Positions 6,744 to 56,095 are shown, counted from the first letter of the stretch. The stretch: 64,000 bases of DNA from a virus (IMGVR_UViG_3300023174_000122:1-64000), one strand, 5' to 3'. A program made the numbers and translations. The notes: generated by a model not told the origin, from the letters alone.

Positions 6744-9700
6744 ATGGCAGATTTTAATGTAGATGTTAATTTGCCAAGTGCAATAAATGTTGATATAACA
6801 TCACCAACACAAGCTTTAGCTACTAATATTTCAATTCCTGGGTCTCAAGGGCCAAGAGGAGAAAAAGGCAATCCTACATCAATAAATAGTTTAACTGCAG
6901 AAAATATTGTCATCACTGGTGTTAATGGTAATACGGTTTATGCTACTGGATTTAATACAATTTTTATTTCTGGTAATAGTGGATATTTTCAATCAGCAAT
7001 AAATAATTTAACAACTAATTTAAATTCAACTGGATCTTCTCTTCAAAGTAACATAAATACACTTTCATCTAATTTAAATTCTACTGGTTCAAATTTAGAA
7101 AATAAAATAACTTCCTTAAGTGGTGATGCAGTTCTTGAATACGGAAATCAAACTATTCAAGGTCAAAAAACTTTTACAGAAGATTTAATTGTACAAAAGA
7201 GTGGTTTCTTTTGGAGTGGTATTAAGATTGGTTTAAATTCAATTATAATAAATGAAGAAAGCATAAAAATCTCTGGAGATCCAGTAGTCGTACAATCTAC
7301 ATTTACGGGCTATACAGGAGATGTTTCAAATACATATGCTACTATCAATAGTCTTGTAAGTACTGGTAGTACGTTAGAAACTAAAATTGGATCATTAAGT
7401 GGGACATTAACTTCTAATTACGCAACGATTACTAATCTCGCATCTACTGGTGCCACTTTAACTTCTAGTATAAATTCTCTTAATTCTGCTTTTACTGGAT
7501 TTACTGGAAATCTTGATACAACATATGCAACCGATAGTCAATTAGCTACTACTGGAACAACTCTTGTTAATAGCATTAGTTCTCTTAGCGGAACTTTGAC
7601 TTCTAATTATGCAACTATTAGTAATCTCGCTAGCACTGGTTTAAAATTAGTTAATACCATAAGTTCATTGAGTGGTACTTTAACTTCGACATATGCGACA
7701 GTAACAAATTTAGCATCAACTGGCTCAACATTAGATGCTAAAATCAATAGTTTAAGTGGATATGTTACTGGTGCAGATGCAACATTGATTACGAATCTTG
7801 CTTCTACTGGATCCACTTTAAATTCCAGCATTAATTCCTTGAGTGGACTTTTCACTGGATATACTGGCACTTTAGATGCAACATATGCAACTGATTCACA
7901 ATTACAATCTACAGGAACATCTTTAAATAATTCAATAACTTCATTAAGTGGAACTTTGACTAGTACTTACGCTACAATATCAAATCTTGCTAGTACTGGC
8001 AGCACGTTAGATAACAAGATTGGCTCGTTAAGTGGTACGCTAACATCAACATACGCAACAATTACAAATTTAGCATCAACTGGTTCTACTTTAAATAATA
8101 GTATTAACTCTTTGAGCGGAACTCTTACTAGCACTTATGCAACAATTAATAATCTAGCAAGCACTGGTTCCACACTACAAAGCAACATAAGCTCAACAGG
8201 TAGCTCATTAGACAATAAGATTGGATCATTGAGTGGAACATTAACATCTACTTACGCTACTATCACTAATCTTGCTAGTACAGGCTCTACATTAAATACA
8301 AAAATCAATGAATTTAGCGGATATGTTAATACTCAAGATACTTCTATATCTAACAATTTAATTTCTACTGGTAATACTTTACAAAATAGTATAAATTCAC
8401 TTAGCGGCAGTTCAGTTCTACTTTATGGAGATCAAAGCATTGGCGGAGTTAAAACTTTCAGAGATAATGTTTATATTAATAATCTTTTTGTTACTGGAAC
8501 AGAAACGATTATTAGTACTAATAATTTTAATGTTCAAAGTCCGTATTTGCTTTTAAATCTTACTGGTGGCGCAGTAGATGGTGGAATTTTCTTTGTTACT
8601 GGAAGTGGATTAACTGGAATAAATAATAGTGGTCCTATCATTGGCTTTGATCATAGCAATAAATTTAAATTTGGAGTTAGTACCAGAAATAGCGACCTCT
8701 CAACTTTACCTGATATAGCATCAGTTCAAGATATTACTGCTTATAGCGGTTTTGTTGATGGCAAGTACTCAACCATAATAAATCTTGCTTCAACTGGAAG
8801 TACACTATCTACAAATCTAGCTAGTACAGGTTCAACTCTTCAAACAAATATCAATAATCTTAGTAACACCTATGCTACCATCACAAACCTTGCTTCGACT
8901 GGAAGTACGTTAGTAACCAATCTTGCTAGCACTGGCTCGACTTTAAACACAAAAATAAATAATCTCAGCGGTTACGTTAATTCTACTGGTAGCAATATCG
9001 TTTTCACAACTGGCAATCAAACTATCTCTGGAGATAAAATATTTAAAAATAATATAGTGATCGAACAGACTGGAATTTTTAGTGCAATTGATTTATCAGA
9101 TACAGATAGCATCTTATTAAGTGGCATAGATATTCAAATAGTTAGTGGGAGCATGACTTTAACAAATCCGCCAACTATTTCTGGAAATCCATTTATCACT
9201 GGCAATCTAGCTCTTTATGCGACAACAATAAATCTTGCTTCTACTGGAAATACTCTTAACAGTAATATAAATTCACTTAGCGGCACATTAACTTCTAATT
9301 ATGCTACTATTACCAACCTTGCTTCTACTGGAAGCACATTGGTTACAAATCTTGCGAGTACTGGCTCTACTTTAAATTCTAATATAAATTCACTTAGTGG
9401 AACTTTGACTAGTACTTACGCTACAATATCAAATCTTGCAAGCACTGGCAGCACTTTAGCAACTAATCTTGCTAACACTGGCTCGACTTTAAATTCTAGT
9501 ATTAACTCTTTGAGCGGAACTTTAACATCTACTTATGCGACAATTAATAATCTAGGTTCAACTGGTAATACGTTGGTAACCAATCTTGCGAGTACTGGTT
9601 CTACTTTAAATACCAGAATAAATAATCTTAGTGGTTATATAAATTCTACATCTAGCAACATCGTTTTTACAACTGGAAATCAAACTATTTCTGGAGTCAA

Positions 9701-11261
9701 AAGTTTTGCTCAAGACACAACATTTGGCGACTCGGCGCAGGGTGACTTTTTAGTTATTTCTGGTAATAATTTTACAGTCTACGGAAGTGGTAATTTTACT
9801 AGTGGGCTTTTTGTTAATGGCAACGCAGTACTAACTGGAGTTAATTTAACTCCATACGCAACAACAGCTAACCTCGCTTCAACTGGTTCAACTTTAACAA
9901 ATAGTATTAATTCATTAAGCGGAACTCTTACTGGAAATTACGCTACAATCTTAAATCTTGCATCTACTGGAAATACATTAAATACTAGAATAAATTCATT
10001 AAGTGGTACATTAACTGGGAACTATCTTACAACTTCATCTGCTTCTAGTGCTTATGCAACTATAACTAATCTAATAAGCACTGGATCTACTTTAAACTCT
10101 AATATAAATTCTTTAAGTGGTACATTAACATCAACTTATGCTACCATTACTAATCTCGGATTAACTGGTAGTACATTAGCGACTAATCTTGCTTCAACTG
10201 GCTCTACTTTAAATACAAGAATAAATAATCTCAGTGGCTATATAAATTCTTCAAGTAGTAATATTGTATTTACAACTGGCAATCAAACTATTAGTGGAAA
10301 CAAAACATTCCAAACTTCTCAAGTTAATATAACTGGATCTAGTTTAAACTTTGGAGATATTATTAACCTTGGAACACCAGTAATATTCACCCAAAGTAAT
10401 AATACTACAACCCAAGTAATTGATTCTATTGATACTAATGTTCAGATAACAAGAGGAAGTCGGTTTGGCATTTATAACCCAAGCCAAGAAGGTGGATGGA
10501 ATGGAAGTGGACCAATTTATACAGAATGGAATGGTGACGGATGGAGTGATTTAACTAACATTGCTGATAGAACTTATTATACTTTCTATGATTTAGCTCA
10601 AGCCTATGGACAAAACATAGGTAATTATATAGTTGGTAAAGAATTAGTAATGTATGATTATTATAATAATAAATATTATAAATTTTATTTTACAAACTGG
10701 CAACCAGGTGGATCAAGTTCATGGAATGGCGAAGAAGACGAAGGAGTTATTACTTATGCAGGTTTTGAATATACAAGAACAAGAATTTTTTCAGCTAATA
10801 AATCTGAAATTAATGGTTCAAATGTAGGTGGATATCTTGATCTTAAAAATAGACTTTTTATTAATGGCACAGGAGTTCTTTTAAGTGGAGAAGCTGGCAA
10901 AGTTCCCGATACGGTTGTACAAACTACTGGAACTCAAACTATAATTGGAAGTAAAGCATTTTCAGCAGCTACAACATTTTCAGCAGCATCAACATTTAAT
11001 TCTGCAGTTAATTTTAATAACAATATAACAGTAGCTCAAACTGGCATATTTAGTAGCATGGATGTATTTGTTGATGAGATGAGTATTTCTGGAATTAATT
11101 TAACACTAACAAGCGGCAATTTAATTTTAGCAGGTCCTACTGGAATACCATCAACTACAGGAGCAAGTGGAGTTAAGGGAACAATTGTTTGGAATACTGG
11201 ATTTTTATATGTTTGCACAAACACTAATTCTTGGCGCAGAGCAGCTCTAAGCACTTGGTAA
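6744..11261 (+). CDS. long repetitive fibre protein (head or tail fibre)
   Basis: Many ~29-aa repeats LASTGSTLxxxINSLSGTLTSTYATITN; six G(N/D/T)Q(T/S)IxGxK(T/S/I/A)F fibre motifs; short collagen GSQGPRGEKG; C-terminal GxKGxIxWxxxxLYVC...WRR module. Confidence 0.8.
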   Translation: MADFNVDVNLPSAINVDITSPTQALATNISIPGSQGPRGEKGNPTSINSLTAENIVITGVNGNTVYATGFNTIFISGNSGYFQSAINNLTTNLNSTGSSLQSNINTLSSNLNSTGSNLENKITSLSGDAVLEYGNQTIQGQKTFTEDLIVQKSGFFWSGIKIGLNSIIINEESIKISGDPVVVQSTFTGYTGDVSNTYATINSLVSTGSTLETKIGSLSGTLTSNYATITNLASTGATLTSSINSLNSAFTGFTGNLDTTYATDSQLATTGTTLVNSISSLSGTLTSNYATISNLASTGLKLVNTISSLSGTLTSTYATVTNLASTGSTLDAKINSLSGYVTGADATLITNLASTGSTLNSSINSLSGLFTGYTGTLDATYATDSQLQSTGTSLNNSITSLSGTLTSTYATISNLASTGSTLDNKIGSLSGTLTSTYATITNLASTGSTLNNSINSLSGTLTSTYATINNLASTGSTLQSNISSTGSSLDNKIGSLSGTLTSTYATITNLASTGSTLNTKINEFSGYVNTQDTSISNNLISTGNTLQNSINSLSGSSVLLYGDQSIGGVKTFRDNVYINNLFVTGTETIISTNNFNVQSPYLLLNLTGGAVDGGIFFVTGSGLTGINNSGPIIGFDHSNKFKFGVSTRNSDLSTLPDIASVQDITAYSGFVDGKYSTIINLASTGSTLSTNLASTGSTLQTNINNLSNTYATITNLASTGSTLVTNLASTGSTLNTKINNLSGYVNSTGSNIVFTTGNQTISGDKIFKNNIVIEQTGIFSAIDLSDTDSILLSGIDIQIVSGSMTLTNPPTISGNPFITGNLALYATTINLASTGNTLNSNINSLSGTLTSNYATITNLASTGSTLVTNLASTGSTLNSNINSLSGTLTSTYATISNLASTGSTLATNLANTGSTLNSSINSLSGTLTSTYATINNLGSTGNTLVTNLASTGSTLNTRINNLSGYINSTSSNIVFTTGNQTISGVKSFAQDTTFGDSAQGDFLVISGNNFTVYGSGNFTSGLFVNGNAVLTGVNLTPYATTANLASTGSTLTNSINSLSGTLTGNYATILNLASTGNTLNTRINSLSGTLTGNYLTTSSASSAYATITNLISTGSTLNSNINSLSGTLTSTYATITNLGLTGSTLATNLASTGSTLNTRINNLSGYINSSSSNIVFTTGNQTISGNKTFQTSQVNITGSSLNFGDIINLGTPVIFTQSNNTTTQVIDSIDTNVQITRGSRFGIYNPSQEGGWNGSGPIYTEWNGDGWSDLTNIADRTYYTFYDLAQAYGQNIGNYIVGKELVMYDYYNNKYYKFYFTNWQPGGSSSWNGEEDEGVITYAGFEYTRTRIFSANKSEINGSNVGGYLDLKNRLFINGTGVLLSGEAGKVPDTVVQTTGTQTIIGSKAFSAATTFSAASTFNSAVNFNNNITVAQTGIFSSMDVFVDEMSISGINLTLTSGNLILAGPTGIPSTTGASGVKGTIVWNTGFLYVCTNTNSWRRAALSTW

Positions 11262-34400: not shown

Positions 34401-34427
34401 TTTGATAAAAATGCTAGAGGCATATAA
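31392..34427 (+). CDS. baseplate hub/tail tip-like protein with poly-Ser and Cys cluster
   Basis: GPLREVLTAWANDFGLNWYYD resembles hub (gp27/gpD-like) segments; two Ser9 tracts. Confidence 0.45.
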   Translation: MSTKNKVEAITLNGSNQYMGGKIYFCSFSPNFSEKPSEVQVNVISENGTYSKPNINFSAPVKVKIGKLDLGDMYPYKYKNRYSSQGNILEVSFIDPSFILDKIFVGLIGKHGWSTTFAKEIKESNEKTFSEALGIPSSSSSSSSSGVGEGTDIYHRVTDNFWLIGRQFHPCDENKDNVITHQEAYNVDPCDPCPSCPEDKYENRCKELAYTTIFEVGYCFQDLIDTVSSFKIKQGSTDITLETPQGLTIDQLNKFYRDYHGPLREVLTAWANDFGLNWYYDIKDKKIKFIDISSKEIQVDVKTTIAKYDKKSLISYDHEVSAENTSQRGAISWYERGGERKSADCSKANTVILSALYGADYLGNRSRTLLKGDDINSNTDIMGSILRAYNPLLRELFWQRAVYKMNKSSDLIDYINDFSIGAGSSSSSSSSSVPFGSFGDDNYEYQSSNNKILPELGDMQILAVIDCGLSKTDKEKTTFQKFANAQYEDLTRSMNTYDRIKFIQNSGFFVVAYINEDTLAKRYDMEDELYSFLGKFFIREHLFRLCGITGNDEFVKNNTNLESADGTATIYSKKDGIGSHPLSKYKFYKSGYLGCIVGSGNVSTTDPKSNKGAIGQSQGFQMQERQANGINTVQLQETPQKYVDAGGSAGSMISPEKGKESMSRFEQTAIILEREPKWYPEVQLFQDQYNDYINKNLSQMEWKLFGNNGMPPGSDWVTTAFGGNTGFLKSGIAGSIKVFVVETGDFPVYPLFQEDFGSTYSHPIDQTATASRKMLRRVGGKYSPQTPIGLLNNTCHKINFGKSKTLPEIYTPPHTFVKSTKKDLIEKDILSETKSQGAGGGAKSCDVGLGKEPHRVPAYRVYVSQSFSQAVTLPKIQTGVFSNMKCDTAVRNLNVSYTKLTDDDFKSYTGSNGYGCIPDTRYLDGINNAYTGNVFSNTVPDDSLNIEIKGLPDLQDYAQEIKQGLDSVNIQISDQGINSTLQYSTKMVKGISSDLLKFQNSRRFDKNARGI

Positions 34428-42558: not shown

Positions 42559-42975
42559 ATGAGTAATGATTATTTTGAGTTTAATAATATATCTTGTCAT
42601 GGATTACCATCTTTTATTACTGGGTTAAACTATCAATTGCCAACTGGTAAAAACGAGAAGGTTTTTACTAATTTAAAACCTATCGTAACTGGATTTTACA
42701 AAAATCAAGATCCTACTAGAAACCCTGATATTATACATGTTTCCAATTTACCAAATAATATTTTTTATAATACTGGAACAAACTATCTGCAAGGGTATGT
42801 TCAAGATCATGGAACTTATAATCTAAAAGTCCATATATTAGAGTCTGGAATTTTTTGCGAAAAAATAATAATATTAAATGTCATAAATACTGGGTTTAAT
42901 TATTTATATAAAGTTAATTATCCTATTAACATTGGATTTATAAAATACAACGCATTACAGAGGTTGGGATTATAA
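42559..42975 (+). CDS. small protein with Ig-like (He_PIG-type) segment
   Basis: VSNLPNNIFYNTGTNYLQG...GTYNLKV resembles the LPxGLxxxxxTGxIxG...GxY consensus. Confidence 0.45.
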   Translation: MSNDYFEFNNISCHGLPSFITGLNYQLPTGKNEKVFTNLKPIVTGFYKNQDPTRNPDIIHVSNLPNNIFYNTGTNYLQGYVQDHGTYNLKVHILESGIFCEKIIILNVINTGFNYLYKVNYPINIGFIKYNALQRLGL

Positions 42976-43005: not shown

Positions 43006-44046
43006 ATGGTAGATCAAAGCTATAATGTTCGTACTGGATTAAAAACTATATATAATATATATAACGGTTTGGGTCAATCCCAATGTTTTTATATTAATAA
43101 TATAGAAGCGTCTGGTCTTTATTTTGAAAAAGAAAAAAAATATCAATTCATTCAAACTCATATATCAAATAATGGTAATCCTTTAAATATTTATCTTGAT
43201 AAATATGGAAATAAAAAATTAGAAGAATATGTATCAATAAGTGGTGTAGCTGGAATTGATAGGTATGTTACCGTTTCAATACCAAAAACTTTCACAGAAA
43301 CAAATACTCTTTATTATGGAAATGAAAGTGGAGATTTTTTTGGGGCGCCAATTAAACTAATTTCAACTGAGTACTATTTAAAATACAATATAAAACTACT
43401 ATGTTTTGACGCGTATCATGATAATGAAAAATATATTATACCTAATAATATTTTAACAAAAAATAAAAATAGTCAATCCTATACCTCTGGAATTTTACCA
43501 ACTATCAATAAATATAATAATCTTTATGGTGGCCAAGCCCAAAGCGGTTATCTTACTAATATAAGAACAGATGTTATAAATATAAATGTTCTAGGTGCAA
43601 ATAAAATTTTTATGAAAGATAATTTTAATTTTGATTTTTTTGGAAACAATTTAATTTATAAAAAAAATAGTAATAGCATAAATAAAGAGTGGTCTAATTT
43701 ATATGAACTTTATAATTTAATTTCAGATTTATGTTTTACAGATTCTGGGTCATTAAATTCTGGTGAAAATTTTGAAAATTATTATCAATATGGTTATCAG
43801 CTCTCTGGATGTGAAGGTTGCATTGATAAGTTGACTTTGACTACTGGATATAATAATTTTTATTCTGGTGTTATAACTTTATTTTACAATCCAAGAAAAA
43901 TCTATAAAAATTATCGTAGTTATCCGCGCATGAACGTCAATTATGAGTATTTTTCAAATAAAGATTTTGTAACTTCAAGTTACATTATCGATTCAGGGAA
44001 TTTTAATTACATTAAATATACAGGGGCTCAAGCTTATTATGTCTAA
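43006..44046 (+). CDS. hypothetical virion protein
   Basis: 346-aa ORF; YQFIQ...SGVAG...TLYYG beta-sandwich-like N-terminus. Confidence 0.55.
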   Translation: MVDQSYNVRTGLKTIYNIYNGLGQSQCFYINNIEASGLYFEKEKKYQFIQTHISNNGNPLNIYLDKYGNKKLEEYVSISGVAGIDRYVTVSIPKTFTETNTLYYGNESGDFFGAPIKLISTEYYLKYNIKLLCFDAYHDNEKYIIPNNILTKNKNSQSYTSGILPTINKYNNLYGGQAQSGYLTNIRTDVININVLGANKIFMKDNFNFDFFGNNLIYKKNSNSINKEWSNLYELYNLISDLCFTDSGSLNSGENFENYYQYGYQLSGCEGCIDKLTLTTGYNNFYSGVITLFYNPRKIYKNYRSYPRMNVNYEYFSNKDFVTSSYIIDSGNFNYIKYTGAQAYYV

Positions 44047-46679: not shown

Positions 46680-47840
46680 ATGAAAAGTTTAGATGATATT
46701 TTAATAGTGCCTAAATCTAGGACCTTTTCTGCAAATAAGAATACATGGTTTAAATATAAGATTGAAGGAATTCAAGGGTATTATTCTAATTTTACAACTC
46801 AAATGAGCCATAACACACTTGTTATTACCCCAGATTTATATATTGTCGGACATATAAAAACTAACATTGGGTGGAACTATCAGTATGTGTACTTTTACGA
46901 TAAAGAAAACAGAATTTCACAAATGATTATTGGAGTTTATATTTTAGATATGAGCTGTGATTCTGAAGAAGCTAGATGCGAAGATTTTAATTTTTCATCA
47001 AATCCTTTACCAAATGAAAATGGAAAATGCCCTCCGCATATTATTTATATTCAAAATCTTACTTGTTACGGTTGCAAAAAAAATGATGGTAGTCCACCAA
47101 GTTTAGATCCAAACGAAGAAACTTGCGAAGAATATGATTTTTTTAGTAAACCACCAGTATGCGTTGACGGTACTAAATCTACAAAGATAAAAGTTAATTC
47201 TTTAGATTGTTATACCTGCGACCCCTATTCTAGTTCATCATCCTCTTCAGGTCCAGGTCCTAGCCCAGCTCCTAGCCCAAGTCCTAGCCCAAGTCCTAGC
47301 CCAGCTCCTAGCCCAAGTCCTAGCCCAAGTCCTAGCCCAAGTCCTAGCCCAAGTCCATTTCCAATATATCCTCAACCTCAACCTCATCCAGCAGGAAAAA
47401 AAGGAGAACCTCCTTGTTGCAGCTGCGCGAAGATGGGATGCCCAGGCGCTTTACTAACTAGCACCCCAGGTAGATGTAGTTGGCTGTTGAACGAAGAAGT
47501 GTGCTGCAGTGCAGGACCTCAACATTGTATAGATGAATTTTCTGGCTGGGATACCTGCGGCAAGTACTGCATTAAATGCGCTGAAGCATGTGCAAGCTGC
47601 TGCAGACCAAACAATGACAATCTTACTTTCTGCTCGAATGGGTGGCATTATAAAGAGAGAAAATGCGATTGCGGCTGCGACAACGCTTGTTCAGTTAATG
47701 AAAAAAAATGCAAGCCTCCTAAACATGCAATGATTCAATCATTTAACGAAGACAGTTTAATGTTTAGTTTACGTACTCAAGATTTAAAAGACGCTTTTAA
47801 ATTGCCACCAATTACAATAGATTTTTTTAGTAATGAGTAA
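46680..47840 (+). CDS. Cys-rich protein with Ser/Pro-Ser linker
   Basis: About 29 Cys; S7-GPG-(PSPS/PSPA)8 linker. Confidence 0.7.
   Translation: MKSLDDILIVPKSRTFSANKNTWFKYKIEGIQGYYSNFTTQMSHNTLVITPDLYIVGHIKTNIGWNYQYVYFYDKENRISQMIIGVYILDMSCDSEEARCEDFNFSSNPLPNENGKCPPHIIYIQNLTCYGCKKNDGSPPSLDPNEETCEEYDFFSKPPVCVDGTKSTKIKVNSLDCYTCDPYSSSSSSSGPGPSPAPSPSPSPSPSPAPSPSPSPSPSPSPSPSPFPIYPQPQPHPAGKKGEPPCCSCAKMGCPGALLTSTPGRCSWLLNEEVCCSAGPQHCIDEFSGWDTCGKYCIKCAEACASCCRPNNDNLTFCSNGWHYKERKCDCGCDNACSVNEKKCKPPKHAMIQSFNEDSLMFSLRTQDLKDAFKLPPITIDFFSNE
47259..47354 (+). repeat. 12-bp tandem repeat CCTAGCCCA(AGT/GCT) x8 encoding PSPS/PSPA
   Basis: Eight copies read directly. Confidence 0.95.
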
Positions 47841-49530
47841 ATATAATTACGCAAGAATATACATGACAGGATTTAGGAGCGCGCCTATTGAAATAGCAAC
47901 TCTTACTGAATTTAATAATAATAAAATTTCTTTTGAGCAACGCCCAATAAATAAAATTAAAATTAAAAACATAACTTTGTTCTCAACTTATAATTTTACT
48001 CCAGACCCAGGAACAATTTTGAGTGGGATAAGCTCAATATATGATTCTTCTTATTCTGGAGATCTTTATAGCAAAGTCACTGGAATTGGAGAATTTATAG
48101 ACGTAGGTAGCACAAATTCTTCTGGAATATATTTTGCTTCTGGATATCAGACTGGGATATTTATTGATGGACAAAATTTTTATGATACTCATGGAAGACC
48201 TGTAACGCCAGTCAATACTAATTTTAGCATAGACTCTTCTAGTAATGTTAAATATATTTTAAGTGGTATTTTTACTGGATTACAAATTAAAAATAATTAT
48301 AGTCCTTTAGATGCTGATTTAGAAAAAATTTCATTCTCTGGTAATTCTCCAATAGCTTATAGAGAACATTCTTACACTGGAGTATATACTGGAATATCAC
48401 AAATTAAAGATAATTTTTACAATGAAAATACTAACGTAGTATCTTTCTTTAAAAACTTTTTTTATACCGTTTATGGAACTGCACCATGGAACACAAGTTT
48501 TAATGTCGTAAATGATACATCAAATGGCCCAGGAGAGACTATTGGTATGGCTATTTTAAATAAAATTTTAAACAATGGCTCTGGATATGCAGATGAAATT
48601 AGAAATATAATAGCTAGCGGCAATATACCAAAAGTAAGATTACCAAGAAATAATTTAACAGGACGTGCAGTATTGACTGGATTTTTAACAGGTAGAGTCT
48701 CACCTGAAAATTTTGGTTTGGGTGGAGTTGGTTCTGGATTTAAAAACTTTTTAAAATTAATAACTGGCTCTGGAATAAACGCCAAACAAGATTATGGTAC
48801 AGGATTTTTAAATGCATATAATTATTTAAATTATAATACTCCAGTAGAGTCCGATTCTATAAATATAGAAGATGATGTTAGTGGTAATTTTTATACTTTA
48901 ACTTATTCAACTGACCCATTGTTAACAGCTCCTCTTTATTTTAATTCAATACAAACTCTTAATAATATTATTAATTCTGGTAGCGGATCTTATGGGGTCT
49001 ATTCTCAAGTAATTGGAACAAAATTAAAATTAACTTCTGCATATTCTGGAGAAAGTGGAAATCTTATACAAATAAATACTTTTGGTTCTGCCACTACTCC
49101 CACGCTTCAAAATGGAAATTATTTACTGAGTGGAGAGACTTATTACGAATCTCTAATATCTACTGGAGTATTTAGTTCTTTTGTTGGAGGCACGGTTCTT
49201 GCTACAGGTCTTATGGCACAAAATTATTCTGATTATATTACTGGCAATATGACTGGAACTTTAGGAATAAAAACTTTTGCTAATACTTGGGATTTATATT
49301 TATCAGAAGATGGTTTATCTTATGCTTATGCTAGTCAAATGACTGGTAAAACTACTCCTACTACTGTAGATTATACAACTAATTATATTGATGAAGCTAC
49401 AATAAATTCTTATATTGTAAAACTTGTATATAAGAATCCTAACCCTAGAATATATGATGATATTGTAGCTCTTAAAATAAGAGTAAACAATAATCAACAA
49501 ATTATCATGAACATAACAGGAGTTGCATAA
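47833..49530 (+). CDS. [S/T]G-rich virion structural protein
   Basis: 565-aa ORF, dense SG/TG. Confidence 0.6.
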   Translation: MSKYNYARIYMTGFRSAPIEIATLTEFNNNKISFEQRPINKIKIKNITLFSTYNFTPDPGTILSGISSIYDSSYSGDLYSKVTGIGEFIDVGSTNSSGIYFASGYQTGIFIDGQNFYDTHGRPVTPVNTNFSIDSSSNVKYILSGIFTGLQIKNNYSPLDADLEKISFSGNSPIAYREHSYTGVYTGISQIKDNFYNENTNVVSFFKNFFYTVYGTAPWNTSFNVVNDTSNGPGETIGMAILNKILNNGSGYADEIRNIIASGNIPKVRLPRNNLTGRAVLTGFLTGRVSPENFGLGGVGSGFKNFLKLITGSGINAKQDYGTGFLNAYNYLNYNTPVESDSINIEDDVSGNFYTLTYSTDPLLTAPLYFNSIQTLNNIINSGSGSYGVYSQVIGTKLKLTSAYSGESGNLIQINTFGSATTPTLQNGNYLLSGETYYESLISTGVFSSFVGGTVLATGLMAQNYSDYITGNMTGTLGIKTFANTWDLYLSEDGLSYAYASQMTGKTTPTTVDYTTNYIDEATINSYIVKLVYKNPNPRIYDDIVALKIRVNNNQQIIMNITGVA

Positions 49531-50228: not shown

Positions 50229-51533
50229 ATGAACGGATTAACGTCAACAAATTGGAATAACTCTTATGGAATGGAGAATCCAAAAAATATTTTAAATAAA
50301 GTAATTAGCCACGGAGCGCTACCAATTAATCAAAATTATGTATTTTTTAATAATGGTGCAACAAGATTTATTAATGATTCTAAATTAACTCCAGAAATTA
50401 AAAAAGCTTTAGAAGATGAAAGAATAAAAAGAGGTCGTGGTCCAATACATGGCTCTGGTACGATCAGACCGATTGGATTCACTGAAGCTGAGATGTCTGA
50501 TTTATTTTATAATTCATATGGTTTAGACGTTAGAATTTCTAGTGTACCACCTCCTATAGATCCTCTTACTATCGCCCTCTTAACCACGGGAGTAGGAAGT
50601 CTAGTGCAACTTCTAGCAGCTATGAGTATTTATTATATATTACTTGATGTACTCAGAATTTTTTCTTCTAGTGCTAGTTTTCAATTACCTAAATTAGGAT
50701 TTTCTGATTTTTACGGTTATGAAGAAAAACCAGTCGACCCTAAAAGCATTTTAAAAATAATTAATAGAAATTATCCATTGACAAATGATGGCGAATTACC
50801 AAATAATAGATTCGTAAATTTATCAAGTCAAGCAGCATTTAAAAAAATAACAGGAAATTCAAGTTACGATACTACCTTATCTAAGTATCAATTTAATGGG
50901 GGAGGAGGTTTTTCTACTGATTTACGTGGAGAACAAATGAAAAAATATATAGATAATTTATTAGGAAATTTAACAATAGAAAAATCACAAATAAATAAAT
51001 TAAAAAAATTTTTTCCTAAAGATAGCGCTGCAATAGAAACTGCTCAACAAAATAAAAAAGCACTTCTAGAAATAATGAAAACTAAAACTAATCTTGGTGC
51101 AAATTATATACATGCAGATTTTTTAGATTATGTACCAGTTCTACTTTCTTCTAGACAAAAAGGTTATCCTAATAAAGAGAAAGAAAAGTCTATATTTGGT
51201 CCATATATATGTAGATCTAAAAGAACATACCTATATTACCCAAAAATTATAGTTTCAACTGGAGCGATGTCTACTTTAAATTCTCCTCAGTTTTCCAGTA
51301 TGGAAATCTTAAATCTAGGGGTTACTGTTTTTGGTGGATATCCAGATTTTTTTAGCACAGCTACTTTTGAAGATCTCGGACAATATATGGGCCTGGTATT
51401 AAGGATTGCTTCGTATGGAAGATTACCAATGCTCGGCGGTGCCTGTAATGTGCTAAATAAAGACCAAGCTTTTAATTTAGGAGCAGCCTTTAATCAAAAG
51501 ACACAATTCAAAGCAAAATCAGACGGATGCTAA
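50229..51533 (+). CDS. hypothetical protein with hydrophobic segment
   Basis: LTIALLTTGVGSLVQLLAAMSIYYILLDVL possible membrane helix. Confidence 0.55.
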   Translation: MNGLTSTNWNNSYGMENPKNILNKVISHGALPINQNYVFFNNGATRFINDSKLTPEIKKALEDERIKRGRGPIHGSGTIRPIGFTEAEMSDLFYNSYGLDVRISSVPPPIDPLTIALLTTGVGSLVQLLAAMSIYYILLDVLRIFSSSASFQLPKLGFSDFYGYEEKPVDPKSILKIINRNYPLTNDGELPNNRFVNLSSQAAFKKITGNSSYDTTLSKYQFNGGGGFSTDLRGEQMKKYIDNLLGNLTIEKSQINKLKKFFPKDSAAIETAQQNKKALLEIMKTKTNLGANYIHADFLDYVPVLLSSRQKGYPNKEKEKSIFGPYICRSKRTYLYYPKIIVSTGAMSTLNSPQFSSMEILNLGVTVFGGYPDFFSTATFEDLGQYMGLVLRIASYGRLPMLGGACNVLNKDQAFNLGAAFNQKTQFKAKSDGC

Positions 51534-52330
51534 ATCTTTTTTATTCTTTCTATAAGCTCAAATATCTTAGCTTTAGGAATATCATTTAATGAGTTTATTT
51601 TTTCAGCATTTTCGAAATTTTCTTTAATTAATTTAATTTTTAAATTATCAAACGATATATTCTTTTGTTTCATTATTTTTTCTAAAAGATTAAGCGGAGA
51701 AGTAGGGTTTTCTTGAACTTTGTTAGCCTCTTCTAGAAGTTTAGCGTCTCCAAGTTCTTCTTGAGAAACTATATTAATCTTAAGAAAATTACGTACACAT
51801 CTTACAAACGCTCTATTCTCAGCAATCGCCGCTAAAAAGAATCTTGCAAAACTTTTTGTATTATTAACTGTCGCATCAGCTAGTGATTCAAAAATAATTT
51901 CATTACCATTTGTTTCGTAATTAGGCGACCAAGTAATCCTACAGCTTGTAGCAAAATATGTATCTGTGGCAGACACTACATTATATTCTACTTTTGTATA
52001 ACCACGAATTTGAGCTAATTCTTTAATTCCACCCAAAAGGATAAGAAGGTCTTTATCTTCTAGTTTAGATACATCTGTTTCTTGAGTCTTTTGACGGTTA
52101 TTGACGAGATACTCTGTTTTAACCATTTTACGCCAATTTATTGTACCATCATCATTATATACATAATTGATGCTCTTATCTTCTATTAAGCCGTACTTAT
52201 TTCTAGAAATTAATTTGGGTGGTACTACTGAAGCTTCTTCGACTTTAGATGTTATATGAATAGTGTCACTATTAAGGTCAGAACTATTAGCTGAAACTGT
52301 ATTTTCCTGAGATTTAATTTTAGGGCTCAT
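51530..52330 (-). CDS. Rad52/Sak-like single-strand annealing protein
   Basis: LLGGIKELA...ESLADAT...AIAENRAFVRCVR pattern. Confidence 0.5.
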   Translation of the reverse strand: MSPKIKSQENTVSANSSDLNSDTIHITSKVEEASVVPPKLISRNKYGLIEDKSINYVYNDDGTINWRKMVKTEYLVNNRQKTQETDVSKLEDKDLLILLGGIKELAQIRGYTKVEYNVVSATDTYFATSCRITWSPNYETNGNEIIFESLADATVNNTKSFARFFLAAIAENRAFVRCVRNFLKINIVSQEELGDAKLLEEANKVQENPTSPLNLLEKIMKQKNISFDNLKIKLIKENFENAEKINSLNDIPKAKIFELIERIKKI

Positions 52331-52336
52331 TCTAAG

Positions 52337-52365
52337 ATGATACCCTGTCTTTAACTTTTTGTCAA
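52337..52365 (-). promoter_or_regulatory. sigma70 promoter TTGACA-N17-TATCAT, leaderless
   Basis: Near-consensus; -10 ends 6 nt before ATG 52330. Confidence 0.7.
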
Positions 52366-53541
52366 GTCCATAGAAAATATATAAAATTTATTTGGGTTCT
52401 CATTTATTATTTTAATATCATAAAATTCTTGAACATTTTCATTGATATTTTTAATAGGTTTATTATCGAAAAATGCTTTTTCACTTAAGAAAACTTGACC
52501 TTTACTTAATATAAGATTATTAGATTTATAAAATATATTTTTATTTGGTTGTAGGGTTATTTTTTCTTCTATCTCTTTGTGCTTTAAAGGAACCTGTATA
52601 ATTATTCCTTCGTCTATATATGCCATTTTATATTTATTTAAATCATCTTTTTCTAGGTATGAATATAATTGATATTTTATATTTAATCTCTTGAGGTCTT
52701 TAATGAAGCTTGCACTAGATTCATCTTGGATAAAGTAATTAACGCCGAGAATTGCGGCTTTGTTCTGTTTTAAGATATCCAAATCAATAGGCCGATCAGA
52801 GGATATAATGCATGGCATTAATTTGAGTTGTTGATTTAAATTTTTCTCATCAAAAAATAAATCCATTCTAACTACGCCTTGATTTACTGTTTGAGTACGC
52901 TCTACAACATGATCAGGTACGATATGAAAAATTTTATTATTAAATAATCTACCAAGATAAATAGTATTAATCAATGAAAGTTTATTCTTTATATTTAGAG
53001 TTTTTAAAATGCTCTGTGCAATTAGTTCTGGTTTAATATTATTAATAGCCCTTGGATTTTCGTCAGCTGAATAACTTGGTTTGCTACCATTTCTTTCTGG
53101 TTCTAATAAGATCATATCTTCTTCTTTAGTCCAATAAGGTTTTACATTAGCTATATTGTTATTACTGTAAACTGCTACTATTTTTTTTCCATATCCAGAT
53201 GCAATATGAGCTCCAAAGCTATCTGCTCCTACGTGCATTAATGAATTTTTAATAATATATGCTACTTGTTTGATGTTCGTTTGACCAACTACACTATAGC
53301 AATTTTGTAAAATAGGCTCTTTATCTGCGCCAATTTGGACTATGGTTATATTATTTTCTCTTAAATGAGGCAAAATTAAATCAACAACTTCTTGCCAATA
53401 TTCATAATTTTTAGAATTAAATTTGCTATACGGCTGTAAACATATATATTTTTCAAGAGCCAACGGAAAATAAGATTCCAATATAAATGGCTTTCCTATT
53501 TTTAATCCAGAAGATGTAGCGTATGATTCTATTAGGTGCAT
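52351..53541 (-). CDS. glycosyltransferase family 9-like, C-terminal lobe plus unknown domain
   Basis: KNYEYWQEVV...IVQIG...GQTNIKQVAYII...HVGADSFGAHIASG. Confidence 0.7.
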   Translation of the reverse strand: MHLIESYATSSGLKIGKPFILESYFPLALEKYICLQPYSKFNSKNYEYWQEVVDLILPHLRENNITIVQIGADKEPILQNCYSVVGQTNIKQVAYIIKNSLMHVGADSFGAHIASGYGKKIVAVYSNNNIANVKPYWTKEEDMILLEPERNGSKPSYSADENPRAINNIKPELIAQSILKTLNIKNKLSLINTIYLGRLFNNKIFHIVPDHVVERTQTVNQGVVRMDLFFDEKNLNQQLKLMPCIISSDRPIDLDILKQNKAAILGVNYFIQDESSASFIKDLKRLNIKYQLYSYLEKDDLNKYKMAYIDEGIIIQVPLKHKEIEEKITLQPNKNIFYKSNNLILSKGQVFLSEKAFFDNKPIKNINENVQEFYDIKIINENPNKFYIFSMDLTKS

Positions 53542-53544
53542 AAA

Positions 53545-54186
53545 TTAATGAAAATTTTCTCCATATTTAGGTAAAAATGCATGTCTTATTTCTATATTTG
53601 GTTCTACTATGATTCTATGTCCAAGAGCTCTAACTTTCTCAAAAAAAGATACATGATCTAATCTTTTGTCATTAATATCATATATTACTTTTTTATGTAA
53701 ATGCGCTGGAACGATAAAACATGTGCCTACTGAATGAATCTCAGTTTTAACATCTCCATTGGATTTATTATAGGGTGGTTTAAAATCAAATTTAATTCCA
53801 TTAGAATCTATAAAACCATCAATATCATAAAATCTTTTCCAAGGCCACCAATCATTATCTTCTATATAAACATATGGGGCAACTACTTCTGTCGTTGAAA
53901 TAGATAACAATTTTTCAATTATATCAAATGGATATTCGACTATATCTGAATCCATCCAAAAAACATGAGTGTAATCATCAGTAAGATTTTCTTCTATTAT
54001 TTTATTTCTTAATCTAATCAACTTAGCATATCTATGTTCATTACCTTCAATATACCCATCATATACGGCTCGATGCTTGTTCTCGAATGTTAAATTATTA
54101 AATATATTCTCCGCATTTTGCTTCCAAATAAACCATGCTCCTTTTGGAGAGATGAGTTGTGGAACAAGCACTTTAATTTCATTCAT
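53545..54186 (-). CDS. GT-A fold glycosyltransferase (Anp1/Mnn9- or GT2-like)
   Basis: LIRLRNKII...HVFWMDSDIVEYP (DxD)...VVAP...FYD...SVGTCFIV. Confidence 0.65.
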   Translation of the reverse strand: MNEIKVLVPQLISPKGAWFIWKQNAENIFNNLTFENKHRAVYDGYIEGNEHRYAKLIRLRNKIIEENLTDDYTHVFWMDSDIVEYPFDIIEKLLSISTTEVVAPYVYIEDNDWWPWKRFYDIDGFIDSNGIKFDFKPPYNKSNGDVKTEIHSVGTCFIVPAHLHKKVIYDINDKRLDHVSFFEKVRALGHRIIVEPNIEIRHAFLPKYGENFH

Positions 54187-56095
54187 CTTTTAAATCGAAA
54201 GCTATATTTGTTTTACCATTATGTTGATAATTAAACATTCTTTGAGTTCCAATGTGTGGTAAAAATGCAATTTCAAAATATCCTTTATGATCTCCAATGC
54301 CCTCTAGCCATAATAATTGATCCATTTGTGGTATATATTGAATGACTTTATCTACAAAAGGATTGCCTTCTAATATTGAAAAATATTGAGGGTTAGTAGC
54401 GACATATAATTTTTTATTTGGATATTGCTTTTTAATTGAAGAAAACAAACTAGTAGAGATGTATATGTCTCCTATTGACTCTGGCATAACATATAAAACT
54501 CTATCTTCTGGTTTTTCTGGACCTAATATTTCTTCAAAACTAATTTTTTTATTTTTTTCATTTTCTTGAGCTGCAATTTTTCTGAAATAATTTTCAATAT
54601 CGTTACGTTTTGCGCCTTTAGCTATTTGTTCAATCCAATACTTATGACCATCATCATTGTGATCTACATGACTCATTTTAAGTATATTATTATACATGCA
54701 AGTTAGCCATTCTGCATCATCTTTAATTTCTGGTATTTGGAAATATGGATCTCTTTGCTCCTCTTTTGCGGAAAAATCATAGTTTGTTTCTGGAGCACTA
54801 TCAATAAAATCTTCTATAAATTTACCAACAGTTTCAACGGAGAAATGCTCTATAGTCCACTCTCGGGCTTTTTTGCCCATCTCTTTCTTTTTTAGAGATG
54901 GCATATTGTATACTTTATGTATTTGTTTCGCTATTGAAGATGGTTTAGTAGAAGCTTTTTTAAATTCTGTCCCATGCTCTCTATACTCTGTCCAATCAAG
55001 AGCTAAAGACTGAGCATCATCTTCGCACATTTCTTGCCCACAACTATAGTCTGTAACTAAAGTTATAAGTTCTGTTAATTTAGCCTCTTGAATAGGAATT
55101 TCTTGACCTCCACTAGTAAATGGATGACAATATACATCCATCAAATTATATACTTCATTTAATTGCTCTTCTGTAATTCCTAAACCTACGTTTGTAGTGA
55201 TTTGAGATTTTTCGCTACCGCAGAATCTACAATTAACTTCTTGCCCATGGAATGGTTTAATTTCATAGTCACCACAACTTCTGCATATATAAGTTGTTAG
55301 TATTTCCTTTAGGTCAATTCCATATTCTTGAGCTAATCTATGTATATTCCATCCTTCTCCCCAATGAGTGTGCAAAAGAAGATATGTATTTTTAATCTTA
55401 GGATTCTGTTGTTTCCAAAGAGCATATCCTTCTAAAAGATTTGGTACGCTTTTTCTAAGCTGGTTTCTAAATACGAAACCAACTATGAATGCGTCTAATG
55501 GAATGTTGTTCTTTTTTCTGAGTTCTTCTTTTTTATGATTCTCTAGCCTATAAAAGTTTTTTGTTTCAATCGGTCCGTGTACAGTTTTAACATGTTTATG
55601 CCCTAGATCGTGCATTGCTTTTGTAGCAAAATTACTCCAAATCCAATAATTTTTAATTTTATCTGCTTTGGTAAGCGCAGATGGTAGAATAGGTAAAGAG
55701 TCTAAAGTCGTCCATAATACCGAAGGGATTTTATTAAACCATTTTTTATCTACTGAAAAATCAATACCCCAAATATCTTGCACGGCTATATAAATATCAG
55801 GTTTTTCTTCCTGCATTACTTTATCTAAGTAATGTGCGCCATAACTAGCTAACCTAGCTACATTAGGGTCTTTATTTAATTCTTGTAATTCTTGTTGCGA
55901 ATTAGGTAATGATCCTACGCTTTTCCATGGGGTTCTTTCAAATTCTGGATGATGATAAGGTAATCCACAAGAATAATGCACTATGTCATATTTACCCGTA
56001 TTATATAAATACGATAATAAAGCTTTCGCTGCCCTGCCAAATCCAGTTTTAGCTAAACTAAAATCAGATTGATATAGTAGTTTCTTTTTTTTCAT
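54179..56095 (-). CDS. multidomain glycosyltransferase: GT4 (GT-B) with Zn ribbon, DUF4214-like region, GT9 N-lobe
   Basis: TGFGR, FRNQLRK, HPFTSGGQEIPIQEA; CRSC/CRFC; MYNNILK...DDGHKYW; C-terminal ESIGD...IKKQYP...ILEGNPFVDKV. Confidence 0.75.
   Translation of the reverse strand: MKKKKLLYQSDFSLAKTGFGRAAKALLSYLYNTGKYDIVHYSCGLPYHHPEFERTPWKSVGSLPNSQQELQELNKDPNVARLASYGAHYLDKVMQEEKPDIYIAVQDIWGIDFSVDKKWFNKIPSVLWTTLDSLPILPSALTKADKIKNYWIWSNFATKAMHDLGHKHVKTVHGPIETKNFYRLENHKKEELRKKNNIPLDAFIVGFVFRNQLRKSVPNLLEGYALWKQQNPKIKNTYLLLHTHWGEGWNIHRLAQEYGIDLKEILTTYICRSCGDYEIKPFHGQEVNCRFCGSEKSQITTNVGLGITEEQLNEVYNLMDVYCHPFTSGGQEIPIQEAKLTELITLVTDYSCGQEMCEDDAQSLALDWTEYREHGTEFKKASTKPSSIAKQIHKVYNMPSLKKKEMGKKAREWTIEHFSVETVGKFIEDFIDSAPETNYDFSAKEEQRDPYFQIPEIKDDAEWLTCMYNNILKMSHVDHNDDGHKYWIEQIAKGAKRNDIENYFRKIAAQENEKNKKISFEEILGPEKPEDRVLYVMPESIGDIYISTSLFSSIKKQYPNKKLYVATNPQYFSILEGNPFVDKVIQYIPQMDQLLWLEGIGDHKGYFEIAFLPHIGTQRMFNYQHNGKTNIAFDLKDE

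What the first reader, a model, noticed from the sequence alone, without database searches (positions are those of the whole stretch)
6744..56095. Candidate phage-encoded virion O-glycosylation system: [S/T]-G-saturated surface proteins plus a glycosyltransferase cluster
Seen in sequence: peripheral structural proteins carry an extreme excess of Ser/Thr-Gly dipeptides. By hand count, about 50 of about 73 Gly in 34427..36520 and 16 of 19 in 1681..2160 follow S/T, and the dipeptides are also dense in 6744, 27749, 37518, 44039 and 47833. These proteins have unrelated folds (coiled-coil fibre, LRR, RCC1, FG-GAP) and mixed codons (ACT/ACA/TCT/AGT/AGC), so selection looks protein-level. The major capsid protein (2 cases) and DnaE (about 6 in about 860 aa) lack the bias. 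The same genome encodes GT4, Anp1/Mnn9-like and GT9-like enzymes at 52351-56095. Established: some mycobacteriophages O-glycosylate virion Ser with their own GTs; Ser-Gly is a glycan attachment motif in eukaryotic proteoglycans; Anp1/Mnn9 build protein-linked mannan. Inference: [S/T]G is a lineage-specific sequon producing a glycan coat on fibres and tail tip.
Basis: partly seen in the sequence, partly recalled or inferred. Interest (0 to 1): 0.9.

Follow-up and report, generated by a model that had tools for sequence, protein, structure and literature searches.

The report
Ser/Thr-Gly motif on phage tail proteins
Ten outer tail and fibre proteins of this uncultured aquatic phage put a serine or threonine before about half of their glycines; the pattern is real and conserved, and one of the folds, checked against cellular relatives, does not require it. 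It may mark attachment sites for the phage's own sugar-adding enzymes, but nothing here shows that.

Summary
Observation confirmed. In ten plus-strand virion proteins [S/T]-G occurs 369 times against 143 expected (2.6x). TG and SG are the two most over-represented of all 400 dipeptides in the structural block. Other virion proteins (0.97x) and the minus-strand genes (1.05x) show no excess.

The bias is directional (G-[S/T] 1.1x) and survives local shuffling. No shared DNA word explains it. It is absent from T4 (1.10x) and cyanophage S-CBS4 (1.07x).

The RCC1 fold does not require it: RCC1 proteins of this phage family score 3.06x, other RCC1 proteins 1.17x.

Sites are positionally conserved. 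In 22 homologues S/T is kept at 85% of sites against 50% for other S/T, and S-T swaps make up 44% of changes.

The GT9-like, Anp1-like and GT4 genes are real. GT4 and the GT9 pieces occur in every relative that covers the region (Anp1 only in some), next to dnaE.

The link between motif and enzymes is unproven. No relative lacking the glycosyltransferases was found, glycosyltransferase counts do not track the bias, and some relatives carrying the operon have unbiased neighbouring tail genes.

My best reading, at about 0.38, is an O-glycosylation acceptor motif at exposed beta-strand ends. A purely structural turn motif is nearly as likely.

This scan has already reported the same phenomenon on other genomes, several of them uncultured phages of 146-175 kb.

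The parts
1681..2160 (+). Small LRR protein; 16 of 19 Gly follow S/T, mostly in the repeat NNLI[S/T]G
   Evidence: weak LRR_4/LRR_8 hits, below cut-off. No homologue in the five relatives compared (G012, G004, G001, G005, G002).
6744..11261 (+). 1505-aa Ser/Thr-rich fibre just downstream of the capsid gene; 103 [S/T]G against 48.5 expected, mostly inside the repeat ...NLAS-TG-STL...INSL-SG-TLTSTYATI...
   Evidence: BppL_N at the C-terminus. The counterpart protein is enriched in every relative examined. 67 of 80 capsid-flank loci hold an ORF with z > 3.
27749..31402 (+). 1217-aa RCC1-repeat tail protein; 57 against 21.2 expected
   Evidence: Family homologues 3.06x against 1.17x for other RCC1 proteins.
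34427..36520 (+). 697-aa tail protein: N-terminal ConA-like/galectin-like jelly roll, then an unmodelled beta-rich region; 50 of 73 Gly follow S/T
36560..37525 (+). 321-aa protein with a weak VWA-like hit; 8 against 2.1 expected
37518..42029 (+). 1503-aa FG-GAP plus RCC1 tail protein; 50 against 28.6 expected. Canonical FG-GAP 'dG' positions read SG here. Contains a run of 50 Ser (41523-41672) made by a 15-nt tandem repeat
42559..42975 (+). 138-aa protein; 6 against 1.1 expected
43006..44046 (+). 346-aa protein; 13 against 3.6 expected
44039..46648 (+). 869-aa tail protein of unknown fold; 33 against 9.4 expected; Ser-rich C-terminal tract
47833..49530 (+). 565-aa tail protein of unknown fold; 33 against 11.3 expected
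4840..5904 (+). Internal negative control: 2 against 5.1 expected
19213..24540 (+). Tape measure protein; internal negative control, 27 against 26.7 expected
54179..56095 (-). 638-aa fusion: GT4 (GT-B) domain with a conserved CxxC...CxxC insert, a helical DUF4214-like segment, and a GT9 N-terminal lobe. Present in every relative covering the region, 52-88% identical
   Evidence: AlphaFold model pLDDT 93. Best solved match is chlorovirus NY-2A glycosyltransferase 3OY2, E 8e-18.
53545..54186 (-). 213-aa Anp1/GT62-like GT-A enzyme; found only in G000, G012, G004 and G001
52351..53541 (-). 396-aa protein: GT9 C-terminal (donor) lobe at the N-terminus plus about 250 aa of unknown function; present in every relative covering the region
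   Evidence: Profile hit to WaaF 1PSW, E 0.0036.
51530..52330 (-). 266-aa conserved last gene of the operon; family unknown
56100..56645 (-). 181-aa conserved gene between dnaE and the GT4 fusion; family unknown
56677..59292 (-). DnaE polymerase core; context and negative control, 6 against 4.5 expected

Best explanation
The motif, roughly hydrophobic-[S/T]-G-hydrophobic, sits at the ends of beta-strands and in tight turns of the outermost tail and fibre proteins. It is maintained by selection on the Ser/Thr hydroxyl.

I take the most likely reason to be that these hydroxyls are acceptor sites for cytoplasmic O-glycosylation by the phage's own soluble glycosyltransferases. Candidate enzymes are the conserved GT4-GT9 pair or the accessory enzymes. 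Sugars would come from the phage's GDP-sugar enzymes. The Gly after the acceptor would give the enzyme room at a turn. The result would be a glycan coat on the fibres and tail tip.

Shown here: the motif, its conservation, its restriction to peripheral proteins, its independence from the RCC1 fold, and the presence and conservation of the enzymes.

Inferred: that any sugar is attached, which enzyme does it, and what the coat is for.
For: 1. Size and specificity of the bias.
2. It is specific to the lineage and not set by the RCC1 fold. Phage-family RCC1 proteins score TG 4.0x, SG 2.1x and DG 0.78x. Other RCC1 proteins score TG 0.76x, SG 0.99x and DG 2.59x. T4 scores 1.10x and S-CBS4 1.07x.
3. 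Hydroxyl-specific purifying selection. S/T is kept at 85% of motif sites against 50% at other S/T. S-T swaps are 44% of changes against 17%. Ala is 3% against 8%, and Asn+Asp 10% against 19%.
4. The bias persists in homologues at 23-29% identity.
5. Hydrophobic residues at -1 (52% against 34% background) fit an outward-facing S/T at a strand end. In the confident part of the model (residues 1-230), 9 of 10 sites lie at or within two residues of a strand end.
6. Only outer tail and fibre proteins carry it. Capsid, portal, tape measure and several baseplate-region proteins do not, and this on/off status is conserved between distant relatives.
7. GT4-GT9 and gmd are present in every relative covering the region.
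8. The GT4 model's best solved match is a chlorovirus glycosyltransferase. By my own recollection, not tested here, chloroviruses glycosylate their capsid with virus-encoded enzymes.
9. Precedent: TibC, a WaaC-like GT-B enzyme, hyper-O-glycosylates Ser on a folded beta-helix, including Ser-313 in the sequence NSGG (PMC4358343). Phage-encoded O-glycosylation of Che8 capsid protein is reported by Freeman et al. 2023, known here only through PMC13445384.
10. None of the known routes to a glycosylatable DNA base was detected: no ThyA-like hydroxymethylase, TET/JBP or C5 DNA methylase. The TET/JBP search also rang in no control genome, so that one is inconclusive.
Against: - There is no chemical evidence of any kind.
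- No relative without glycosyltransferases was found, so co-variation is untestable in this family.
- Glycosyltransferase number does not track the bias. G005 scores 1.10x with at least five Pfam GT hits plus a GT9 C-lobe homologue.
- Loci L144 and L145 carry the operon but their flanking tail genes are unbiased.
- The named GT cluster is the 3' end of the replication operon, not part of the late structural block.
- A two-residue motif carries little information, yet non-target phage proteins do not avoid it (0.97x and 1.05x).
- Very high positional conservation and flanking hydrophobic residues are equally what a structural turn motif would show.
- In the fibre, the LRR, and parts of the RCC1 and FG-GAP domains, the dipeptide is part of a repeat unit.
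- Solvent exposure could not be computed. The AlphaFold model of the motif-dense part is unreliable (pLDDT below 50).
Confidence: 0.38

Rival explanations
1. [S/T]G is a purely structural device of this phage lineage. A Ser/Thr side chain caps a beta-strand and Gly starts a tight turn or bulge, in all-beta, probably oligomeric, tail proteins. Nothing is attached. The glycosyltransferases serve another purpose, such as remodelling host envelope glycans or modifying DNA.
For: - Sites are highly conserved in position, and Gly is kept at 88% of them.
- 9 of 10 sites in the confident part of the model lie at strand ends or turns, one forming a two-residue hairpin turn.
- Hydrophobic residues flank the dipeptide.
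- In the LRR, fibre, RCC1 and FG-GAP proteins the dipeptide is a fixed position of the repeat unit.
- Some cellular RCC1 repeats also read TG before WG (13%).
- The fibre repeat weakly resembles a solved coiled-coil fragment fused to GCN4 (PDB 3ZMF, E 0.16), aligning ITNLAS-TG to ITNLAA-G. That this chain is a trimeric autotransporter stalk is my recollection.
- Glycosyltransferase content does not co-vary with the bias.
- The GT pair sits in the replication operon.
Against: - The same RCC1 fold in other organisms does not need the motif (1.17x against 3.06x). Every other residue before Gly is displaced, not only Asn and Asp.
- T4 and S-CBS4 tail and fibre proteins lack it.
- Asn and Asp, which can make equivalent capping turns, rarely replace S/T at these sites.
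- The idea that NG and DG are avoided to prevent deamidation fails, because NG is not depleted in the other virion proteins (1.04x).
- No structural rule explains why unrelated folds in one phage converge on one dipeptide.
Confidence: 0.37
2. The conserved hydroxyls are used for something other than glycosylation. Options are another modification (phosphorylation, acylation, or chemistry linked to the 2OG oxygenases or the HTTM protein) or direct contacts with a host surface polysaccharide.
For: - The constraint is hydroxyl-specific.
- The genome encodes a 2OG-Fe(II) oxygenase (a second candidate gave only a sub-threshold DUF6445 hit), an HTTM protein and methyltransferases.
- The 34427 protein starts with a lectin-like domain.
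Against: - Those accessory enzymes have homologues only in G012 and G004, each holding only some of them. The bias is family-wide.
- No kinase or acyltransferase turned up among the proteins scanned; the scan did not cover the whole proteome.
- A ligand-binding role would not place the dipeptide at strand ends throughout whole proteins.
Confidence: 0.1
3. The excess is a by-product of composition, repeats or DNA-level bias, with no meaning for the proteins.
For: The fibre and the LRR protein owe much of their counts to amplified repeats. NNT codons are favoured before GGN.
Against: - Global and local shuffles give z up to 11.7.
- The reverse dipeptide is flat.
- Dipeptides sharing the same DNA words are not enriched.
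- Proteins without evident repeats (34427, 44039, 47833) are among the strongest.
- Sites are conserved across 22 homologues.
Confidence: 0.02

Closest known systems
Bacterial autotransporter heptosyltransferases (TibC/AAH) acting on TibA and AIDA-I (PMC4358343)
   Same: A soluble GT-B enzyme related to LPS heptosyltransferase WaaC adds many O-linked sugars to Ser on a folded, repetitive beta-rich surface protein in the cytoplasm. One mapped site is Ser-313 in NSGG. TibC uses a four-Cys finger to bind its substrate. Here there is a GT9-like enzyme and a GT4 with a conserved CxxC...CxxC insert.
   Different: TibC modifies Ser only, not Thr, and its second mapped site is S-A. The four-Cys insert here lies in the GT4 domain, not the GT9 part. 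The GT9 enzyme is split over two genes. A profile search finds WaaF but not TibC. The putative substrates are phage tail proteins, and the donor sugar is unknown.
Virion O-glycosylation of mycobacteriophages (Che8; Freeman et al. 2023, known here only through PMC13445384)
   Same: Phage-encoded glycosyltransferases O-glycosylate virion proteins inside the host cell.
   Different: The citing paper reports glycosylation of the Che8 capsid protein. That the tail tube subunit is also a target, at the C-termini, is my recollection. Here capsid and tape measure are not enriched, and the motif is spread over outer tail proteins. Che8 capsid and tail tube proteins end in ...TGS and ...DGS, so they show no [S/T]G-rich pattern. 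No homology between the enzymes was shown.
Autonomous glycosylation by chloroviruses and other giant viruses (PMC4691112); chlorovirus NY-2A glycosyltransferase, PDB 3OY2
   Same: Virus-encoded soluble glycosyltransferases and GDP-sugar enzymes (GMD) decorate virion proteins without the host secretory pathway. 3OY2 is the best structural match of the GT4 domain here (E 8e-18, TM 0.77 on the target).
   Different: By my recollection, chlorovirus capsid glycans are N-linked at atypical sequons. Sequence identity to 3OY2 is only 14%. The substrate of 3OY2 itself is unproven.
Ser-Gly xylosylation sites of eukaryotic proteoglycans
   Same: Ser followed by Gly is the acceptor dipeptide.
   Different: Those sites need acidic flanks and lie in disordered regions. 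Here charged residues are depleted next to the sites, hydrophobic residues flank them, Thr is as common as Ser, and no GT14-type enzyme was found among the proteins scanned.

Membership tests
GT4 (Pfam Glycos_transf_1), GT-B fold | Pfam hit above the curated cut-off | tested here: met
   54179-56095 scores 29.5 bits against a cut-off of 26.4. PHROG 2170 'glycosyltransferase', E 1.4e-15.
GT4 (Pfam Glycos_transf_1), GT-B fold | Two-Rossmann GT-B structure resembling solved GT4 enzymes | tested here: met
   AlphaFold model pLDDT 93. Foldseek matches 3OY2, MshA, BshA and PimB' at E 1e-12 to 8e-18.
GT9 (heptosyltransferase family) | Pfam Glyco_transf_9 hit above the cut-off | tested here: met
   52351-53541 scores 35.2 bits against a cut-off of 22, but covers only profile positions 105-226 of 247, the C-lobe. 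WaaF 1PSW, E 0.0036, with a family profile.
GT9 (heptosyltransferase family) | Both lobes in one polypeptide | tested here: not met
   The N-lobe-like segment is the C-terminus of the GT4 fusion (residues about 530-620). The C-lobe is a separate gene, with the Anp1-like gene in between.
GT62 / Anp1 | Pfam Anp1 hit above the cut-off | tested here: met
   53545-54186 scores 40.5 bits against a cut-off of 28.8, covering profile positions 112-193 of 263 only.
BAHT (TibC/AAH protein O-heptosyltransferases) | Sequence or profile similarity to TibC | tested here: inconclusive
   The profile search of solved structures returns WaaF, not TibC.
BAHT (TibC/AAH protein O-heptosyltransferases) | Four-Cys iron finger and beta-hairpin thumb inserted in the heptosyltransferase catalytic domain | tested here: inconclusive
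   A conserved CxxC...CxxC insert exists, but in the GT4 domain of the fusion. Metal binding cannot be tested with these tools.
BAHT (TibC/AAH protein O-heptosyltransferases) | O-glycosylation of Ser on a partner beta-rich protein | not testable with these tools
   Needs mass spectrometry.
Phage virion O-glycosylation (Che8 type) | Phage-encoded glycosyltransferases present | tested here: met
Phage virion O-glycosylation (Che8 type) | Glycan covalently bound to virion proteins | not testable with these tools
   No isolate and no proteomics.
Phage virion O-glycosylation (Che8 type) | Capsid subunit is the target (the tail tube subunit as well, by my recollection) | tested here: inconclusive
   The capsid protein and tape measure carry no motif excess, but absence of the motif does not show absence of glycosylation.
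Proteoglycan Ser-Gly xylosylation sequon | Acidic residues flanking Ser-Gly | tested here: not met
   Charged residues are 7% at -1 and 12% at +2 against a 14% background. Hydrophobic residues are enriched instead.
DNA base glycosylation (T4 type or TET type) | An enzyme that creates a hydroxymethyl acceptor: ThyA-like hydroxymethylase, or C5 methylase plus TET/JBP | tested here: not met
   No Thymidylat_synt or DNA_methylase hit in G000, the complete relatives G001 and G002, or the two other relatives searched each time. The TET/JBP search was also negative, but it rang in no control genome, so that part is inconclusive.

The most novel reading that the evidence does not exclude
Hydrophobic-[S/T]-G at beta-strand ends is a dedicated acceptor motif for a phage-encoded cytoplasmic O-glycosylation machine. 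The machine would be the GT4-zinc-ribbon-GT9 split enzyme, or accessory glycosyltransferases, fed by phage GDP-sugar enzymes. It would coat the tail fibres and tail tip of a very large family of uncultured aquatic phages: 417 capsid relatives in IMG/VR and 544 clusters of the GT4 fusion at E below 1e-30. That would be the first sequence-readable glycosylation code for phage virions.
Probability: 0.33. Interest if true: 0.85.

Novelty: new variant of a known kind. Interest (0 to 1): 0.6.

Why it matters
If the motif marks glycosylation sites, tail-fibre glycosylation could be read directly from metagenomic sequence in an abundant, uncultured phage group. It would extend phage virion glycosylation from the capsids of a few mycobacteriophages to receptor-binding proteins. 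That bears on host recognition, protease resistance and virion survival in water.

It would also assign a function to a widespread viral GT4-GT9 fusion that has none. If the motif is only structural, it is still an unusual lineage-wide sequence rule for beta-rich tail proteins that current structure prediction does not capture.

Tried and rejected
Explanations tested and rejected:
- DNA-level motif. Dipeptides sharing the words CTGG or GTGG (AG, PG, GG, CG) are not enriched.
- Local Ser/Thr/Gly-rich composition. Shuffles within 15-residue windows and the flat reverse dipeptide exclude it.
- The RCC1 fold dictates the motif. The RCC1 comparison excludes it.
- Avoidance of deamidation-prone NG and DG. 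NG is normal (1.04x) in the other virion proteins, and S/T displaces every residue before Gly, not only Asn and Asp.

Tests that could not discriminate or returned nothing:
- Co-variation with glycosyltransferases. Every relative covering the region has the GT4-GT9 genes. G003 lacks the GT4 fusion but also lacks DnaE, the exonuclease, PHP and DnaB, so it looks like a truncated or chimeric record. GT2 and GT4 counts do not follow the bias.
- Distant GT4 homologue in cyanophage S-CBS4. Its structural proteins show no bias (1.07x). The enzymes are only 24% identical, so this says little.
- Che8 as a positive control. Its capsid and tail tube proteins end in TGS and DGS, which is not a comparable pattern.
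- Structure of the motif-dense region. AlphaFold gave pLDDT below 50 beyond residue 230. The ESM Atlas gave no usable hit.
- Cultured relatives. tblastn of the putative portal protein and the fibre found nothing in 50,697 phage records. The GT4 fusion matched only S-CBS4 and S-EIVl at 24%.
- Identity of the 181-aa and 266-aa operon genes. Pfam, PHROGs and profile searches of solved structures gave nothing significant. Earlier notes call them SSB-like and annealase-like, which I could not confirm.
- Cellular context of the GT4 fusion. Genome-contig hits lie only on short MAG contigs that look like phage.
- P0101, a 1996-aa [S/T]G-rich FG-GAP/RCC1 protein, had no relative in IMG/VR.

Full report
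**What the window is.** The window is the first 64 kb of an 85,343-base IMG/VR virus record, estimated 56% complete, about 30% G+C, with no tRNA genes. The plus strand from 241 to 51533 is a virion module. It holds a capsid protein with 417 relatives in IMG/VR and a tape measure protein at 19213-24540. About 27 kb of distal tail genes follow, carrying RCC1, FG-GAP, weak LRR and weak VWA hits and a BppL_N domain.

The minus strand from 51530 onward holds a glycosyltransferase cluster directly downstream of a split DnaE. Its order is PHP, exonuclease, polymerase core, then the GT genes. Beyond the window lie DnaB and RecA, two GDP-mannose-dehydratase-family enzymes and an epimerase. There are also two sugar-type methyltransferases, a split transketolase, a GT34, an HTTM protein, a 2OG oxygenase and a PATR/PEP-CTERM protein. 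No cultured phage resembles it.

With expectations from each protein's own composition, TG (239 against 111.5) and SG (238 against 142.9) are the two most over-represented of all 400 dipeptides in the plus-strand block. In the minus-strand block they are at 1.03 and 1.06.

Ten proteins carry the signal: 369 sites against 143 expected, P about 1e-55. The remaining virion proteins are at 0.97. The excess survives shuffling within 15-residue windows. It is directional, since G-[S/T] is 158 against about 143.

Codons are mixed. Dipeptides that would share the same DNA words (AG, PG, GG, CG) are not enriched. The bias is therefore a property of the proteins.

The wider context is hydrophobic at -1 (52% against 34%) and at +2 (45% against 34%). 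Charged residues are depleted.

**It is unusual.**
- T4 head, tail, baseplate and fibre proteins give 1.10x, with 11-25% of Gly after S/T.
- Cyanophage S-CBS4 gives 1.07x.
- The sharpest control keeps the fold constant. Thirty-eight RCC1 proteins of this phage family score 3.06x, with 53% of Gly after S/T. Eighty-two other RCC1 proteins found in the same search score 1.17x, with 20% of Gly after S/T.
- In the ordinary RCC1 proteins DG is the favoured dipeptide (2.59x) and TG is below par (0.76x). In the phage proteins TG is 4.0x, SG 2.1x, and almost every other residue before Gly is depleted.
- The FG-GAP repeats show the same shift, reading SG where I recall the family consensus having Asp-Gly.

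**It is conserved.** In an alignment of 22 homologues of the 34427 protein (34-66% identity), the S/T of a motif site is S or T in 85% of cells. Other S/T positions reach 50%. The Gly is kept in 88%, against 73% for other Gly.

When the S/T changes, 44% of changes are S-T swaps, against 17% elsewhere. Ala, Asn and Asp are under-represented. Homologues at 23-29% identity still have 2.7-3.9x.

Across the nine family genomes analysed in full, the same positions in the tail module are consistently enriched or not. For example, homologues of 31392 score 0.6-0.8x, and homologues of 34427 about 3x. Genome-wide ratios run from 1.10 to 1.84. Of 80 capsid-flank loci, 67 hold an ORF with z above 3.

**Where the sites sit.** AlphaFold models residues 1-230 of the 34427 protein with confidence. 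Residues 1-126 match ConA-like, galectin and PL7 jelly rolls (Z 12.5, rmsd 2.3 Å over 124 aligned residues). There, nine of ten sites lie at or within two residues of a strand end, and one forms a two-residue hairpin turn.

The motif-dense remainder is not modelled (pLDDT below 50).

In the fibre, the LRR and parts of the RCC1 and FG-GAP domains, the dipeptide is a fixed position of a repeat unit. Those counts are not independent events. The 34427, 44039 and 47833 proteins show no evident repeats by eye.

**The enzymes.** Pfam confirms GT9-like, Anp1-like and GT4 genes. The 638-aa protein is a fusion. It has a GT4 domain with a conserved CxxC...CxxC insert, a helical DUF4214-like segment and a GT9 N-lobe. 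The next gene but one supplies the GT9 C-lobe.

The fusion models at pLDDT 93. Its best solved match is a chlorovirus glycosyltransferase, 3OY2, followed by generic GT4 enzymes.

The operon (181-aa gene, GT4 fusion, optional Anp1, GT9 C-lobe, 266-aa gene) and gmd are present in every relative that covers the region. Identity ranges from 33% to 88%. The fusion has 544 clusters at E below 1e-30 in a 1.8-billion-protein library. In prokaryote genomes it occurs only on phage-like MAG contigs.

**The link is the weak point.**
- GT2 and GT4 counts do not follow the bias.
- Two more distant loci with the operon have unbiased neighbouring tail genes, and a third is enriched 2.1x.
- The named cluster is the tail end of the replication operon, which leaves a nucleic-acid or host-envelope substrate open.
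- No ThyA-like hydroxymethylase or C5 methylase was detected, including in the two complete relatives. A TET/JBP search was also negative, but it rang in no control genome.

**Weighing.** A hydroxyl-specific motif, independent of the RCC1 fold and confined to the outermost virion proteins, in a family that always encodes soluble glycosyltransferases and GDP-sugar enzymes, is what an O-glycosylation acceptor motif would look like.

TibC shows that a WaaC-like GT-B enzyme can hyper-glycosylate Ser on a folded beta-rich protein, once in an S-G context (PMC4358343). Phage virion O-glycosylation is known for Che8 (through PMC13445384).

A lineage-specific structural turn motif explains the positional conservation and the hydrophobic flanks equally well, and needs no unproven chemistry. 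It does not explain why unrelated folds in one phage converge on one dipeptide that their cellular homologues do not use.

I put the sequon reading at about 0.38 and the purely structural reading at about 0.37. Another use of the hydroxyl gets about 0.10, and an artefact about 0.02.

**Earlier work in this scan.** The same kind of Ser-Gly or [S/T]-Gly excess has already been reported and followed up on other genomes, several of them uncultured phages of 146-175 kb, with the same outcome. The GT4-zinc-ribbon-GT9 split has been noted many times. These are unchecked notes, not independent evidence. They do show that this window is one more instance of a recurrent feature.

Noticed in passing
window 41523-41672: A run of 50 consecutive Ser in the FG-GAP/RCC1 tail protein. 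It is encoded by about nine copies of the 15-nt tandem repeat AGTTCTTCGTCTTCT. The 44039 protein also ends in a shorter Ser tract. Poly-Ser linkers are often O-glycosylated in other systems (my recollection, not tested).
   Followed up: partly
window 54179-56095 and 52351-53541 (minus strand): A GT9 enzyme is split. Its N-lobe is fused behind a GT4 domain that carries a conserved CxxC...CxxC insert and a DUF4214-like helical segment. Its C-lobe is a separate gene with a 250-aa unknown extension. An Anp1-like GT-A gene lies between them in some relatives only. Reassembly could not be tested.
   Followed up: partly
window 56677-60869 (minus strand): The DnaE replicase is split. A PHP domain (60123-60869), an RNase T-like exonuclease (59484-60122) and the polymerase core (56677-59292) are separate genes.
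   Followed up: no
window 34427-34810 (residues 1-126 of the 697-aa protein): The N-terminal domain is a ConA-like, galectin or PL7-type jelly roll (Z 12.5, rmsd 2.3 Å over 124 aligned residues, to a domain of sialidase BT_1020, PDB 5MQS). This suggests a carbohydrate-binding tail protein.
   Followed up: partly
G000 67118-80174 (beyond the window; L002): An accessory glycan island: two GDP-mannose-dehydratase-family enzymes, an epimerase, two TylF/CmcI-like methyltransferases, a split transketolase, GT34, an HTTM protein and a 2OG-Fe(II) oxygenase. Apart from the two dehydratase-family genes (one is the family-wide gmd), its genes have homologues only in G012 and G004.
   Followed up: partly
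G000 83635-85323 (L003:3635-5323, minus strand): A phage-borne protein with a PATR repeat and a PEP-CTERM sorting signal. It shows no [S/T]G excess (25 against 25.4). It hints at a host with an exosortase system; the non-phage RCC1 homologues that carry a source name include Verrucomicrobiota.
   Followed up: no
L148 (Synechococcus phage S-CBS4) 9916-12282: A GT4, a 'galactosyl transferase' and a SAM methyltransferase sit between the portal and head-protease genes of this cultured cyanophage. The placement suggests virion glycosylation, and this phage could actually be tested.
   Followed up: no
G003 (IMG/VR record of L079), about 122-142 kb: This record has the 266-aa gene and the GT9 C-lobe but lacks the GT4 fusion, DnaE, the exonuclease, PHP and DnaB. 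IMG/VR classes it as a provirus. It is probably a truncated or chimeric assembly rather than a natural GT4-less relative.
   Followed up: partly
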